From contig JBBISB010000001.1 of the NCBI GenBank assembly GCA_037441475.1, positions 485,365-517,364 of the forward strand: a stretch of DNA of 32,000 nucleotides, in the 5' to 3' direction. Positions 25,332-29,193 of the stretch are shown in pieces (position 1 is the stretch's first letter; every line of letters starts with the position of its first letter). Position numbers and translations under genes: made by a program. The DNA is from Candidatus Iainarchaeum sp. (GTDB taxonomy: Archaea; Iainarchaeota; Iainarchaeia; Iainarchaeales; CSSED10-239). A model generated the notes under the pieces. That model ran no database searches, had not been told where the DNA came from, and was given only the letters and a program-made list of their open reading frames with translations.

Positions 25332-27731
25332 ATGAAAAAAAGAATATTTTTAATAATATTAATAATTTTCTTAACTTTTTTATTACTTCCTTTGATATAT
25401 TCAAAGGCAGCACCAATAGATAACATTCCTATTATTTCTCCAATAAATAAAGCAAAACCACCTGTTTTTGAAGTAATGCCACCGATAGTGGATGAAGTTT
25501 GTTTTGGTTATGTTTGTCTTCCACCAGGAGAAACTCCTATTTCTTTAGGTTTAAATAGTTTGTCTGAAAAATCAACAAGGACTTTAGAAACAACCACTGT
25601 TTCTAACAAAGTGAACACTGCTCCAACTACAGGCACCTATAACATACCTGTTCTTTTAGTTAAGTTTCCTAATCTTTCTGCTCCTTCAAACTATAATGTT
25701 TCAATGTATAATGATGTTTTTAATTCAAGTAATTATTTATCAGGAAACGGTATAAGTGTAAAAGAATATTTTAAAAAAAGCTCTTACAATCAATTAAACA
25801 TCACATATGATGTTTATGATTGGAGAACAATGCCTAACAATTATAGTTTTTATTATACAAACAATAATGTGCATCAACTTGTTGTTGATGCAATGAATAC
25901 TTTTGGAACAGGTTCAAATGCTATTGACTTTACTCAATATGATTCTGATAACGATGGAAGGATAGATGGTGTTATTCTTGTTCATGCTGGATTTCCTGGA
26001 CAAGAACAAAGTGGAAATATTTTATCTCAAGCAAGACTTTATAGAGGAACTACAATTTATAGTATTCAAGGTAAGTTGTATGGTAATGTTGCTGTAATTC
26101 CTTCAAGACACACTGCTTTTGCTTGTAATTCCTGGAAACAGACTTTCAACTACCCAACAGATTGTAGAACCTCGATAGATGTTGCTGTTCACGAGTATTC
26201 TCATGTTCTTGGTCTTCCAGACTTTTATGCTATTACTTATTCTGGCCAACAAGCCGGAACTGGTCTTGGTGGGCATACTATTATGAATATGAATAGTAAT
26301 GCTATTCAAGATGTAAAAAAACCAGTTAACTTCGATTCTTGGTCAAAGTTTTTCTTTGGTTGGCTTACCCCAACTGTAATAAATAGTGCTTCTCAAGCAA
26401 ACATTTATTCTTTAACCTCCTATGATACAACAAATAGTGCTTTTATTTTACATAACCCAAACACCATGGGTGCTAAAGAATTTTTTATAATAACAAACAG
26501 ATATATTTCAACAACTTCTTTGGATAGATATCTTTTTGGTACGATACCTCCTCTATTTAATATTAATGGAGGTATAGACATTCTTCACATTGATGAAAAC
26601 TATATTGATTACACTTACTCTGGTCCTCTTGCTTTCAACAGTATAATGTTTGATCCTGATGGGGATTACTATGATGATAATGTAAGTCATCCTGGTATTG
26701 TCTTTGAACAAAATATTTTAGAACCCGTATTTCCACCTGGTAGAAGTGCAGCAGATTTATATACTACTGAATTACCTCAACCAGGGGTTTGTAGTTTATA
26801 TGTATTTGAAGGTAAGTTTGATAATATTGCAAGACACAGTATGCCTTCAAGTTGTCCTGTTTATAGAGACACAACCTCCAGAAGTTATTTAACCCTTCAA
26901 GATAGCGGTATAAGAGTATATGGTTGGTCTGTTGGTGGACAAACCATGCAAGCCTACTTAACAGTAGATGAACCACTACCCTTAATTAGCCAAATACTTT
27001 CTCCTTCTAATGGTTCTAGTTTTGGTCTTCAAGATAATATTGATTTTCAAGGTAGTTATCAAAACAATATTGGTAACACCTATTGTTTATGGCAATATAG
27101 AAAACTAGGCACAAGTAACTTTGTTTCTTTCTCAAATCAATGTCAAACCACAAAAACCCCTTCTCAATTAAATTTAAGTGAAGGAAGTTACAGCATAAGA
27201 TTTAGAGTTACTGATGAATTTAATAGACAACATACTTCCACAATATTAATAACTATAGTAACATCTACCACTTTATATAATGTAATAACCTCCCCTATTG
27301 AAAATAAAAGTTATCCTTTTAAAGAACCAGTTACTTTCAATGCAAGTTACTATAATAACCAAGGAGATGTAACTTGTGAGTGGAAATATAATAATTTAAT
27401 TATTTCAAATGAATGTAATTTTACAGACACCCCTTTTAACTTAGGTATTGCATCTCCTCCATACAACAGTATGGTGGTAATAAACAGTTCTCTTCCTTCC
27501 TTTACTATTTTAAACAAAACTTTACAAACCAGTCCTTTGTTTAAAGAACCTTTAAAAGTAACTGCCCCAACTATCAAATCTCCAAGCTATTTAGGTAACT
27601 TCCCTGCAGGCTTTACAAGAACAATTACTTTAACTACAACAGATGCAAGTAATGCTTCTTTTGTATCTTCAGTAGATATGAAGCTCTGTTTATGCCTTCT
27701 TGCAAACAATAACCAGGCTGCTGTAAGGTAG
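25332..27731 (+). CDS. Secreted M6-family (immune inhibitor A-like) zinc metalloprotease with two C-terminal Ig-like modules
   Basis: Signal peptide MKKRIFLIILIIFLTFLLLPLIYSKA. The zinc site HEYSHVLGLPDFY matches the M6 HExxHxxGxPDxY signature. There are two similar beta modules of about 100 aa (SPSNGSSF...CLWQY...; SPIENKSYPF...CEWKY...). The last 15 or so codons lie inside the direct repeat flanking hicBA. Confidence 0.8.
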   Translation: MKKRIFLIILIIFLTFLLLPLIYSKAAPIDNIPIISPINKAKPPVFEVMPPIVDEVCFGYVCLPPGETPISLGLNSLSEKSTRTLETTTVSNKVNTAPTTGTYNIPVLLVKFPNLSAPSNYNVSMYNDVFNSSNYLSGNGISVKEYFKKSSYNQLNITYDVYDWRTMPNNYSFYYTNNNVHQLVVDAMNTFGTGSNAIDFTQYDSDNDGRIDGVILVHAGFPGQEQSGNILSQARLYRGTTIYSIQGKLYGNVAVIPSRHTAFACNSWKQTFNYPTDCRTSIDVAVHEYSHVLGLPDFYAITYSGQQAGTGLGGHTIMNMNSNAIQDVKKPVNFDSWSKFFFGWLTPTVINSASQANIYSLTSYDTTNSAFILHNPNTMGAKEFFIITNRYISTTSLDRYLFGTIPPLFNINGGIDILHIDENYIDYTYSGPLAFNSIMFDPDGDYYDDNVSHPGIVFEQNILEPVFPPGRSAADLYTTELPQPGVCSLYVFEGKFDNIARHSMPSSCPVYRDTTSRSYLTLQDSGIRVYGWSVGGQTMQAYLTVDEPLPLISQILSPSNGSSFGLQDNIDFQGSYQNNIGNTYCLWQYRKLGTSNFVSFSNQCQTTKTPSQLNLSEGSYSIRFRVTDEFNRQHTSTILITIVTSTTLYNVITSPIENKSYPFKEPVTFNASYYNNQGDVTCEWKYNNLIISNECNFTDTPFNLGIASPPYNSMVVINSSLPSFTILNKTLQTSPLFKEPLKVTAPTIKSPSYLGNFPAGFTRTITLTTTDASNASFVSSVDMKLCLCLLANNNQAAVR

Positions 27732-27751
27732 AAAAACAAAGCTTTAAAATT
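27685..27751. repeat. Direct repeat copy 1 flanking the hicBA cassette (covers the protease stop codon)
   Basis: Core 27689-27719 tttatgccttcttgcaaacaataaccaggct matches 28255-28285 at 30 of 31 positions. A second block, 27731-27751 gaaaaacaaagctttaaaatt, matches 28296-28317 with 1 indel and 1 mismatch. Confidence 0.85.
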
Positions 27752-27783
27752 TGTTTATATCTATAATATATTAGGTGATATAA

Positions 27784-28008
27784 ATGTTAAATCAATCTTT
27801 TGATATTGTTATTGAAGAAGATAAAAAAACTAAACAATTTTATGGTTCAGTTCCTAATCTTCCTGGTTGTTATTCTACAGGTAATTCTGTTGAAGAATTA
27901 ATTACAAATATGAAAGAAGCAATTTCTTTATACTTAGAAGTTAAAAAAGAAAATAAATCGAAAGTATTAGCTAGCAATGTTTTAGGTATGGTAAGGGTAA
28001 CATTATGA
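27784..28008 (+). CDS. hicB: HicB-family antitoxin (UPF0150-type, no DNA-binding extension)
   Basis: FYGSVPNLPGCYSTGNSVEELITNMKEAISLYLE matches the HicB N-terminal domain pattern. ATGA overlap with the downstream hicA. Confidence 0.8.
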   Translation: MLNQSFDIVIEEDKKTKQFYGSVPNLPGCYSTGNSVEELITNMKEAISLYLEVKKENKSKVLASNVLGMVRVTL

Positions 28009-28232
28009 GTGAGCTTCCTGTTGTGTCTTCTTTAAAATTAGTAAAGGTAGTTATCATGTTAGGTTTTAAAGAACTAAGACAGAAAGGATCTCATAAAATA
28101 TTTTCTCATTCTGATGGTAGATTTTTAGTAATTCCTATTCATTCAAATAAACCAATTCCTGCTGGTCTTTTAAATAAAATTATAAAACAAGATTTAAGGC
28201 TTACAAGAGATGAGTTTTTAAAACTTTTATAA
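28005..28232 (+). CDS. hicA: HicA-family mRNA interferase toxin
   Basis: LGFKELRQKGSHKIFSHSDGRFLVIPIHSNKPIPAGLLNKIIKQ matches the HicA/YcfA pattern (GF...GSH...P.H....i..g.l..Il.q). Confidence 0.8.
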   Translation: MSELPVVSSLKLVKVVIMLGFKELRQKGSHKIFSHSDGRFLVIPIHSNKPIPAGLLNKIIKQDLRLTRDEFLKLL

Positions 28233-28250
28233 GTTGTATAGCTATTAAGA

Positions 28251-28317
28251 TCTATTTATGCCTTCTTGTAAACAATAACCAGGCTCTTTTTTATTGAAAA
28301 ACCAAAACTTTAAAATT
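28251..28317. repeat. Direct repeat copy 2 flanking the hicBA cassette
   Basis: See copy 1. In this copy the core is followed by ctcttttttatt (oligo-T). The gcct...aggc pair could form a weak hairpin, so the arrangement looks terminator-like. Confidence 0.85.
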
Positions 28318-29193
28318 ATTTTTAAAAATAGTTATTAGAGGTTATCGATTATAATCGTCAGAAACAACCACTCTTGACGATTTAAATACCCTTAATTAAA
28401 ATTCATTTTTTCTTCTATCTAATATTTTCTTATAATTTAAGAAAAAACATTAATATATTGTTTTTTAACTCTTCTAACTAACCTTTGTGCTAATAGGCTT
28501 GCATTACTCAAAAGATTTAAAAAGGTCATGAGTAATACTTGTTGTTGAGTAATACAAGTTATAGATATTTATATAATTGGCTAAATATATCTTTTATAAC
28601 TCTAAATAACCCCTTTTTGTTTCTTTAAGGTAAAGTAGAGAAATATTACTTAAAAGTAAGGGTAAATTAAAGAAAAAACACTCTCTTTATATATTTCTAT
28701 ATAATATATTATATATAGAGTAATTAAAGATAGGTTATACAAGAGGTTTATACCCTTAATTGCTTTAAAGACCTTTTTTTAAAAACATATATGTAAATGA
28801 GAGAACATAATATCTGATATAGGAATATTTACTTTAAGAGATGTATAATATGTTAAGCTTTTCTTTTAAACTGACCTTTAATAAGGATAAGAAGAAGGCT
28901 ACTTTTACTTCTTTAAAGTGAACAGTTATTTTTTAAGAATATTCCTTTAAAAAGGTATCGTTTGCTTTCAAAAAAAGAAAGGTTTTTAAACAAAACTGCT
29001 CTTTAATTATCTTATACAAGGCATCAGTATCTATACCTTTCTTTTTAGGGTATTGTTTACTTGAGTGCTTTATGCAAGACGAATCTGTTTTAGATCTTTT
29101 AACATTGTTTTTTTGTTAAAGACAAGAAATAACAAACCATGCAGGTTCAATCTTTGTTTTAGTATAAAAAAACAAAAAAAAGGTGAATAAAAA

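What the first reader, a model, noticed from the sequence alone, without database searches (positions are those of the whole stretch)
27685..28317. hicB-hicA cassette precisely bracketed by direct repeats that duplicate the 3' end of the protease gene
A 31-nt core (tttatgccttcttgYaaacaataaccaggct, 30/31 identical) and a second block of about 21 nt (gaaaaac(c)aaaRctttaaaatt) occur at 27689-27751 and again at 28255-28317. Weaker similarity extends about 25 nt further upstream of both copies. The two copies enclose only hicB-hicA and its promoter.

Copy 1 supplies the last codons and the stop of the M6 protease (…MKLCLCLLANNNQAAVR*). Copy 2 could encode an alternative tail (…IYLCLLVNNNQALFY*) and is followed by an oligo-T tract like a terminator. 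This pattern is what a single-crossover (Campbell-type) integration of a small circular element carrying homology to this site would leave. It is far longer than a transposon target-site duplication. It suggests a discrete, recently mobile TA cassette, and the protease C-terminus may have been remodelled by the event.
Basis: seen in the sequence. Interest (0 to 1): 0.6.

Follow-up and report, generated by a model that had tools for sequence, protein, structure and literature searches.

The report
Mobile hicBA cassette duplicating protease tail
A 501-base toxin-antitoxin cassette that moves between tiny DPANN-type archaea has been recombined into the end of a secreted protease gene, giving the protease a new three-residue tail and leaving the old tail as a fossil copy behind the cassette. 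This is a clean but not unprecedented example of how such cassettes spread.

Summary
A 99-nt ungapped direct repeat (27658-27756 and 28224-28322) brackets only hicB-hicA and its promoter. It consists of a 30/31 core, a 21/31 left flank, a non-homologous 12 nt (last three codons plus stop) and a 21/25 post-stop block. The core occurs only twice in the 769-kb genome.

The mobile unit is 27732-28232 (501 nt). It runs from the first base after the protease stop to the last base of the hicA stop. Exactly this stretch recurs at 83-93% identity in at least eight other gene contexts. Same-genus relatives carry different cassettes at the same site and have no relic.

Copy 2 holds the ancestral protease tail (…QALFY*, against …AALPY* in orthologs). 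The working gene now ends …QAAVR*.

The best reading is one recombination event with foreign DNA that carried a protease-tail homolog plus the cassette, crossing over in the core. A Campbell-type circle is my preferred route (about 0.4). A linear donor with one microhomology join is nearly as good.

Elsewhere the same cassette family sits in arrays separated by repeats that mimic the tRNA-Thr 3' end. An earlier follow-up in this scan had already described the shared leader block on a related genome.

The parts
25332..27731 (+). M6 (immune inhibitor A-like) metalloprotease gene, 799 aa. Its last 3 codons plus stop (27720-27731, AVR*) are the part that differs from the ancestral tail.
   Evidence: ORF. 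PF05547 E 3.8e-11. Ortholog tails.
27658..27756 (+). Repeat copy 1: left flank 27658-27688, core 27689-27719, imported tail plus stop 27720-27731, start of the cassette promoter block 27732-27756.
27732..28232 (+). The 501-nt mobile unit: promoter/leader block 27732-27783, hicB 27784-28008, hicA 28005-28232 (4-nt overlap).
   Evidence: The homology limits are the same in 12 other loci at 83-93% identity. Pfam PF15919 and PF07927.
28224..28322 (+). Repeat copy 2, the displaced protease 3' end: left flank 28224-28254 (first 9 nt overlap the hicA end), core 28255-28285, ancestral-type tail LFY plus TGA 28286-28297, degenerate promoter-like block 28298-28322. A T6 run lies at 28287-28292.
   Evidence: The tail matches ortholog tails 12/15 (metagenome contig L046; sequences, counted by hand), against 6/15 for copy 1.
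28323..28400 (+). Segment shared with the post-hicA spacer of same-genus genome G003, including a hairpin (arms 28353-28360 and 28375-28382). It marks where native downstream sequence resumes after copy 2.
   Evidence: Sequence comparison.

Best explanation
What the cassette is. The 501-nt unit at 27732-28232 is a class-2 hicBA toxin-antitoxin cassette with its own promoter. It belongs to a family that circulates among DPANN-type archaea.

Proposed event. The ancestor of this genome had the protease ending …NNNQALFY*, directly followed by a promoter-like block and spacer. A small DNA molecule then recombined with the chromosome. I prefer a circle of about 566 bp, looped out of a relative's protease-hicBA region at the 9-nt microhomology cttttRtaN. 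This molecule carried a diverged copy of the last ~60 nt of the protease gene, its own three-codon tail and stop, and the cassette. A single crossover occurred inside the 31-nt core, carried out either by host homologous recombination or by an SSV-family integrase acting on short homology.

Result. The native protease body is now joined to the imported tail (AVR*), followed by the promoter, hicB and hicA. After hicA come the imported left arm, the core, the native tail (LFY*) and the native downstream sequence.

Shown directly:
- the repeat and its mosaic identity;
- the exact limits of the mobile unit;
- the horizontal spread of the unit;
- the ancestral nature of the copy-2 tail.

Inferred:
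- the circular form;
- the crossover point;
- the enzyme.
For: 1. Mosaic identity (21/31, 30/31, 3/12, 21/25, in register) fits two diverged alleles of 'protease tail plus stop plus block' recombined in their most conserved stretch.

2. The copy-2 tail is the ortholog type. It reads gct ctt ttt tat tga, against gct ctt cct tat taa in L046: 12/15 matches (sequences, counted by hand). At protein level it is …ALFY*, against …ALPY* in G003, G004 and the metagenome contigs and …YLPY in P0002. The copy-1 tail matches 6/15.

3. The copy-1 left flank is closer to the G003 ortholog (20/33 nt, 7/11 aa) than the copy-2 left flank (15/33, 3/11), by hand count on the sequences. A crossover in the core predicts this.

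4. The unit is foreign to the site.
- It is 90-93% identical to metagenome cassettes and 83% identical to those of another genus. The best housekeeping gene compared with that genus reaches only 73-74%.
- Same-genus G003 and G004 have hicBA alleles with 32-66% interior identity at the syntenic site, and no relic.

5. Other members of this hicBA clade are also bracketed by repeats of a neighbouring gene's 3' end:
- a 35-nt repeat (1 mismatch) of a convergent 332-aa gene in G164;
- a 20-nt repeat of tRNA-Tyr in G017;
- a 16-nt repeat in L118;
- tRNA-Thr-like repeats in cassette arrays.

6. The repeat homology starts exactly at the hicA end, at a 7/9 match. This is the junction a microhomology loop-out would leave.

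7. Precedent exists for ~100-bp homology-dependent recombination by an archaeal SSV-family integrase (PMC5495485). This genome carries an SSV-family integrase ORF (PF16795) at tRNA-Thr(GGT).
Against: - No circular form, empty site or donor arrangement (protease with an AVR tail followed by this hicBA allele) was found.
- In all other contexts the conserved unit lacks the protease-like arms, so the arms are not a standing part of the element.
- The core is also the most conserved part among orthologs (about 88% to G003). By my own binomial estimate (not a tool result), 30/31 has roughly a 10% chance without any crossover.
- The flank comparisons rest on about 30 nt each.
- The integrase ORF of this genome may be a split remnant, because no second att copy lies within 50 kb.
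- The G017 repeat may be a by-product of integrase traffic at tRNA-Tyr rather than of cassette insertion.
Confidence: 0.4

Rival explanations
1. Linear donor DNA, homology-facilitated illegitimate recombination. A fragment from a related archaeon carried protease(AVR tail)-promoter-hicBA. It replaced the recipient's sequence through a homologous crossover in the protease gene on the left. On the right, the hicA end (…cttttataa) joined the recipient's protease at a microhomology (…cttttgtat-like). Copy 2 would then be entirely the recipient's native 3' end.
For: - It explains every segment of the mosaic as well as the Campbell route does.
- The junction lies at a 7/9 microhomology.
- Copy 2 keeps the family's alternating hydrophobic pattern and an open frame.
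- An AVR-type tail exists in the genus: G002 ends …SVAVR*.
Against: - The copy-2 left flank is less like the orthologs than the copy-1 left flank (15/33 vs 20/33 by hand count).
- The protease's last 100 aa are G003-like (51%), not G002-like (39%).
- It does not explain why other members of the clade are also flanked by repeats beginning within 10 nt of the hicA stop.
Confidence: 0.3
2. Dedicated site-specific integration. The 31-nt core is an att site of a tyrosine or SSV-type integrase supplied in trans. The cassette would be a cis-mobilisable mini-element whose attP mimics the protease 3' end, as e14 does with icd.
For: - A near-identical core lies between diverged arms.
- The imported end keeps the gene open.
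- Integrase-bearing elements and att-bracketed copies of this cassette exist in the family.
- This genome has an SSV-family integrase ORF.
Against: - No integrase is linked to this core.
- The core pattern recurs in five metagenome contigs of related species, with no repeat or large insert there.
- The arms are homologous to the target on both sides of the core, which a classical att does not need.
- The only intact tyrosine recombinase looks like XerA, in a housekeeping context.
Confidence: 0.1
3. Local origin. Either copy 2 is the remnant of a second, tandem protease paralog whose body was replaced by hicBA, or a 566-nt tandem duplication occurred and the second hicBA was later deleted.
For: - Whole-gene tandem duplication of this protease occurs in G004 and in metagenome contig L050.
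- The microhomology at 27658/28224 could seed an unequal exchange.
Against: - It needs at least two events.
- Copies born identical cannot easily reach 3/12 in the tail while keeping 30/31 in the core. The 11 mismatches of the 62 upstream nt fall 10:1, binomial p about 0.006 by my own calculation from the counts.
- It does not explain why the functional copy, not the relic, has the non-ancestral tail.
- It does not explain the foreign hicBA allele.
Confidence: 0.1
4. Target-site duplication by a transposition-like insertion, or an assembly artefact that joined population variants through the shared 31-mer.
For: - Small inserts with 18-22-nt flanking duplications exist in another family of the order.
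- The genome is a metagenome-type assembly.
Against: - No terminal inverted repeats were found.
- The flanks outside the core are homologous but diverged, and a fresh duplication cannot give that.
- The copy-2 left flank differs from copy 1, so a path through the 31-mer alone cannot create the hicA-to-copy-2 junction.
- The assembly has two contigs, and earlier notes report frameshifts in homopolymer runs. I read both as signs of long reads, which would span the repeat; this is my inference.
Confidence: 0.05

Closest known systems
e14 (and phage 21) integration into icd of E. coli, leaving the icdC 3' pseudogene (Hill et al. 1989; summarised in PMC13626634)
   Same: The insert sits in the 3' end of a protein gene. 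It supplies a substitute 3' end that keeps the gene open. The original 3' end survives as a short homologous fragment on the far side, so the insert is bracketed by diverged direct repeats of the gene's end.
   Different: e14 is about 15 kb and encodes its own integrase and excisionase. Here the insert is 0.5 kb, encodes only hicBA, and has no recombinase. No excision has been observed.
Class 2 compact hicBA modules (Gerdes 2024, PMC10865869)
   Same: The antitoxin comes first. HicB is small (74 aa) and has no DNA-binding domain. HicA is 75 aa with the GSH histidine motif. Archaeal HicA loci are mostly class 1 or 2.
   Different: That classification says nothing about mobility, leader blocks or flanking repeats.
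Cis-mobilisable elements and tandem accretion at tRNA att sites (CIME-type remnants; archaeal integrative elements, PMC8371274)
   Same: These are recombinase-less segments bracketed by att repeats derived from the 3' end of a gene, living beside integrase-bearing elements. Relatives of this cassette are flanked by tRNA-Tyr or tRNA-Thr 3'-end repeats.
   Different: In the window the repeats derive from a protease gene, not a tRNA. They are 99 nt long with diverged arms, and no cognate integrase is known.
Integron gene cassettes, including archaeal integrons (PMC9668308)
   Same: Both involve sub-kb mobile units, often toxin-antitoxin pairs, in one orientation. In relatives they form arrays separated by a recurring recombination-site-like repeat.
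   Different: There is no attC-type imperfect palindrome and no IntI. The cassettes carry their own promoter at the 5' end. The inter-cassette repeat mimics a tRNA 3' end.
Homology-dependent recombination by the SSV-family integrase of pTN3 (PMC5495485)
   Same: It shows that an archaeal integrase can integrate or invert DNA using any ~100-bp homology. That is the length of the repeat here, and this genome has an SSV-family integrase ORF.
   Different: That enzyme is from Thermococcus and has extra domains. Nothing ties the integrase of this genome to the event.

Membership tests
Type II toxin-antitoxin HicAB, class 2 (hicBA) | HicA toxin domain with the conserved Gly-Ser-His motif | tested here: met
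   PF07927 E 8.2e-16, above cut-off. KGSHK is present in the translation.
Type II toxin-antitoxin HicAB, class 2 (hicBA) | Small HicB (63-103 codons) without a DNA-binding domain, encoded upstream of hicA | tested here: met
   74 aa. Only PF15919/PF21748 match, over residues 6-67. hicB precedes hicA and overlaps it by 4 nt. Definition from PMC10865869.
Type II toxin-antitoxin HicAB, class 2 (hicBA) | Toxicity of HicA and its neutralisation by HicB | not testable with these tools
   Needs expression in a laboratory strain.
Integrative element in the 3' end of a gene with a substitute end (e14/icd type) | Insert bracketed by direct repeats of the gene's 3' end, one completing the gene and the other a pseudo-fragment | tested here: met
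   The relic carries the ancestral tail.
Integrative element in the 3' end of a gene with a substitute end (e14/icd type) | Element encodes its own integrase | tested here: not met
   Only hicB and hicA lie between the repeats. The genome's recombinases lie elsewhere.
Integrative element in the 3' end of a gene with a substitute end (e14/icd type) | Empty site in relatives, and excision to a circle | tested here: inconclusive
   Relatives have other cassettes at the site and no relic. A related species is polymorphic for hicBA. No genome of this species was available for comparison.
Integron gene cassette | attC imperfect inverted repeat at the cassette's 3' end, and an IntI integrase in the genome | tested here: not met
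   No inverted repeat lies in 28233-28330. PF00589 gives only a 278-aa XerA-like protein in a housekeeping context.
Transposon or MITE with target-site duplication | Terminal inverted repeats and a short identical duplication | tested here: not met
   No TIR at the unit's ends. The repeat is 99 nt with mosaic identity.
   The block is 88-98% identical across allele classes. The unit is 83-93% identical in 12 loci.
   No such repeat is found in the window at up to 5 mismatches.

The most novel reading that the evidence does not exclude
The hicBA unit may belong to an undescribed cassette-recruitment system of DPANN archaea. In this reading, sub-kb promoter-bearing cassettes with no recombinase of their own (hicBA, RHH-MazF, DUF4143 ATPases, SDR+RibD) are stacked in arrays. 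The arrays are separated by repeats that copy the T-loop-to-3'-end of tRNA-Thr(GGT). SSV-family integrases, acting in trans on short homology, can also attach these cassettes to the 3' ends of protein genes, each time duplicating the gene's end. The protease site in this window would be one such capture.
Probability: 0.25. Interest if true: 0.75.

Novelty: new variant of a known kind. Interest (0 to 1): 0.5.

Why it matters
Toxin-antitoxin pairs are called mobile mostly because their distribution is patchy. Junctions that show how a bare TA pair enters a chromosome are rarely this legible.

Here the limits of the moving unit are defined to the base. The displaced native gene end is still readable, and the host gene's C-terminus was rewritten by the event.

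In organisms with 0.8-Mb genomes and few mobile-element genes, this gives a concrete, testable route for gene gain: short-homology recombination, possibly integrase-assisted. It also points to cassette arrays built on tRNA-end repeats, which deserve their own study.

Tried and rejected
- Core as a common repeat: rejected. The genome holds two copies.
- Integron cassette: rejected. There is no attC-like palindrome and no IntI.
- tRNA or known RNA in the region: none found.
- Other repeat-bracketed cassettes in this genome: a genome-wide scan for direct repeats 60-3000 nt apart found only tandem paralogs and adjacent tRNAs.
- Viral contigs: neither the core nor the HicA was found.
- Closer protease relatives: none. 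The best is 48% in the C-terminal third. Orthologs occur only in four same-genus genomes.
- Recombination breakpoint inside the protease: sliding identity shows no switch of nearest relative.
- Codon-position pattern of copy-1 vs copy-2 differences: 8, 7 and 4 at positions 1, 2 and 3 by hand count. This shows no sign of purifying selection, so my early idea that both copies diverged as coding sequence is not supported.
- Similarity between the 27 nt upstream of the G017 cassette and the protease core: weak (62 of 2000 shuffles reach the score). The comparison with relatives indicates that stretch is native tRNA trailer.
- G017 as a clean second case: weakened, because the tRNA-Tyr locus is an integrase hot spot with several att copies.
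- One Pfam call was wasted on a wrong reference.
Full report
**1. The observation.**
The window comes from a 769-kb, two-contig archaeal genome. I infer a DPANN type from three features: the small genome size, proteins with class III signal peptides, and an S-layer gene.

The repeat finder reports a single 99-nt ungapped direct repeat, 27658-27756 and 28224-28322, at 76% identity. The 31-nt core (27689-27719 and 28255-28285) differs at one base. No window shuffle reproduces it, and the whole genome holds only these two copies.

In register, the repeat is a mosaic:
- left flank 21/31;
- core 30/31;
- the last three codons plus stop 3/12;
- the first 25 nt after the stop 21/25;
- nothing beyond either end.

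Random pairs of genome positions reach 21/31 in 12 of 200,000 trials and never reach 20/25. The flanks are therefore truly homologous, and the 12 nt between them truly are not.

Between the copies lie only a promoter block, hicB (PF15919) and hicA (PF07927). Copy 1 ends the M6 protease (PF05547) with …NNNQAAVR*. Copy 2 in the same frame reads …NNNQALFY* and stops in the same register.

**2. What moves.**
Searches of relatives and metagenomes define the moving unit to the base.

Two genomes of another genus (G017, G019) match window 27729-28233 at 83%. Metagenome contigs were found through HicA proteins 80-91% identical to the window's. These contigs match window 27732-28232 at 83.6-93.2%, always with the same limits. 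Those limits are the first base after the protease stop and the last base of the hicA stop.

The contexts of the unit differ:
- among DUF4143 ATPase genes;
- next to a radical-SAM gene;
- before an SDR/RibD pair;
- behind another hicBA allele;
- behind a Fic gene;
- at the tRNA-Tyr locus.

Between this genome and G017/G019, the best neighbouring housekeeping gene (a DEAD-box helicase) is 73-74% identical, and most genes are undetectable at DNA level. The cassette is the only HicA in the genome. It fits class 2 hicBA as defined by Gerdes.

**3. The site in relatives.**
Protease orthologs exist only in four same-genus genomes.

In G003, G004 and five metagenome contigs of G003/G004-like species, the protease stop is followed directly by the same ~50-nt promoter/leader block. 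The cargo differs from genome to genome:
- a different hicBA allele plus an orphan hicB;
- an RHH antitoxin with a truncated MazF-like gene, then hicBA, then the orphan hicB;
- a form in which hicBA is missing and only its first 19 nt remain.

None of these has a protease-tail relic.

The allele classes share conserved ends: 88-98% in the block and about 80% in the last 50 nt of hicA. Their interiors are only 32-66% identical. The site is therefore a cassette hot spot, and recombination at the conserved ends can swap alleles.

An earlier follow-up in this scan (e1-549098) reached the same view of the shared leader on a related genome. I found the block independently before reading that note.

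**4. Which tail is native.**
Ortholog tails are …NNNAALPY* in G003, G004 and the metagenome contigs, …QNYLPY in P0002, …HSVAVR* in G002 and …HINAD in G001.

At DNA level, the last five codons of copy 2 match the metagenome ortholog L046 at 12/15, against 6/15 for copy 1 (my count on the sequences). Upstream of the core the relation reverses. Copy 1 is nearer to G003 (20/33 nt, 7/11 aa) than copy 2 is (15/33, 3/11; my count). The protease as a whole shows no change of nearest relative along its length, and its last 100 residues are G003-like.

The simplest reading is that the native gene was copy-1-left plus core plus copy-2-right. The segment from 27720 to 28254 came in as one piece: the AVR* tail, the block, hicBA, and a 22-31-nt protease-like arm.

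**5. Mechanism.**
That piece is a circular permutation of 'protease end plus cassette'. A single crossover of a circle within the core gives exactly the observed order.

The homology between the copies begins at a 7/9 match between the hicA end and the protease (28224 and 27658). This is the junction expected if the circle, or the linear join, formed at a microhomology.

A linear donor gives the same map, using a homologous crossover in the protease and a microhomology join at the hicA end. The only difference is that copy 2-left would then be native, and I cannot exclude this route.

A local duplication is unlikely. The 11 mismatches in the 62 nt upstream of the tail fall 10:1 around the core boundary, and the tail itself is unrelated.

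A transposition-type duplication fails for the same reason, and no terminal inverted repeats are present.

**6. Support from other members of the clade.**
I tested 13 hicBA loci of the order for flanking repeats against shuffles. Three are highly significant: the window, G017 and G164.

- G164 belongs to another family, and its cassette is about 70% identical to the window's. There the cassette is bracketed by a 35-nt repeat (one mismatch) of the 3' end and stop of a convergent 332-aa gene, with a weaker extension, as in the window. A third copy of the repeat, at the gene's true end, is separated from the second copy by an ~85-nt hairpin repeat that is dispersed in that genus.
- In G017 the cassette lies between two copies of the last 20 nt of tRNA-Tyr.
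- In L118 it lies between two copies of a 16-nt stretch of the same locus, 8 nt from the G017 insertion point.

Caution is needed for the tRNA-Tyr cases. That locus is an integrase hot spot. G019 has a 10.8-kb element with a tyrosine integrase between two att copies, and G015 and G016 have similar arrangements.

In twenty more distant hicA loci, only two bacterial ones showed flanking repeats.

**7. The usual home of the cassette.**
In most metagenome contigs the unit is flanked on both sides by a 45-60-nt element. The core of this element, TTCAA[CT]TCCCGCCAGAAGCTT, matches the T-loop-to-3'-end of this genome's own tRNA-Thr(GGT) at 19 of 20 positions. The same repeat follows every gene or gene pair of those arrays, about 20 nt after the stop. 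The 'spacer' between cassettes in G003 and G004 is an extended version of it.

This genome carries an SSV-family integrase ORF (PF16795, E 1.8e-28) that starts inside the 3' end of tRNA-Thr(GGT). An orphan copy of the repeat lies at C1:283947.

The window's cassette has none of this. It therefore did not arrive as an att-bearing unit from such an array.

Published work shows that an archaeal SSV-family integrase can recombine any ~100-bp homology. That is a lead for the enzyme, not evidence.

**8. What could not be done.**
The tool for finding sequencing runs was unavailable. I could not look for empty-site reads, circular junctions or assembly support.

No genome of the same species and no donor-type arrangement turned up in the protein database, the metagenome scan, the species-representative genomes or the viral contigs.

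**9. Verdict.**
The repeat is real and specific. hicBA is a discrete, horizontally spreading 501-nt cassette. The protease tail was rewritten, and the old tail survives as copy 2.

The route is a single recombination with foreign DNA that carried protease-tail homology. A Campbell-type circle is preferred (0.4), and a linear donor is close behind (0.3).

The closest known analogue is e14 in icd with its icdC fragment, but here the insert is 0.5 kb and has no recombinase. I class this as a new variant of a known kind, of moderate interest. The tRNA-end cassette arrays seen in passing may be the more novel lead.

Noticed in passing
L107:1285-4683, L111:1043-3310, L117 (metagenome contigs): Arrays of single-gene or gene-pair cassettes (DUF4143/AAA_14 ATPases, hicBA, SDR+RibD_C). 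Each is followed about 20 nt after its stop by a repeat that copies the T-loop-to-3'-end of tRNA-Thr(GGT), flanked by small hairpin motifs. The layout is integron-like but without attC or IntI.
   Followed up: partly
own genome G000:C1:200300-201259 (outside the window; L115:10301-11260): An SSV-family integrase ORF (PF16795, E 1.8e-28) begins inside the 3' end of tRNA-Thr(GGT). No second att copy lies within 50 kb. An orphan att-like copy sits at C1:283947.
   Followed up: partly
L063 (G019:C5:26000-38686): A 10.8-kb integrated element lies between two copies of the tRNA-Tyr 3' end. It carries a tyrosine integrase (PF00589), an N6-methylase/specificity fusion, a DUF5906 primase-like protein and a 23S-IVP-like protein. 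The hicBA unit lies 27 nt beyond the second att copy.
   Followed up: partly
L026 (G164:C15) and L069 (G023:C45:2925-2970): An ~85-nt hairpin-containing repeat is dispersed through two genomes of another family. In G023 it is bracketed by an 18-nt duplication that includes the start codon of the downstream gene. In G164 it is bracketed by a 22-nt duplication of a gene's 3' end.
   Followed up: partly
L021 (G004:C27:1600-1720) and L050: Whole-gene tandem duplication of the M6 protease, with the junction TAAaagata|atatATG. In L050 the second copy has a premature stop three codons before the end.
   Followed up: no
window 28353-28382 and 28498-28562: An 8-bp-stem hairpin (aatcgtca … tgacgatt) lies in a segment shared with G003 and G004; their arms differ from the window's, and in G003 the pairing is imperfect. 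The GTATTACTC/GAGTAATAC inverted motif also follows hicA in G019 and lies beside a hicB remnant in G015.
   Followed up: no
L034 (G002:C80:8216-8903): An RHH antitoxin plus an intact MazF/PemK-like toxin, headed by the same leader block, sits 25 nt after tRNA-Thr(TGT). In G004, L050 and G008 the toxin of this pair is truncated to 7-9 codons.
   Followed up: no
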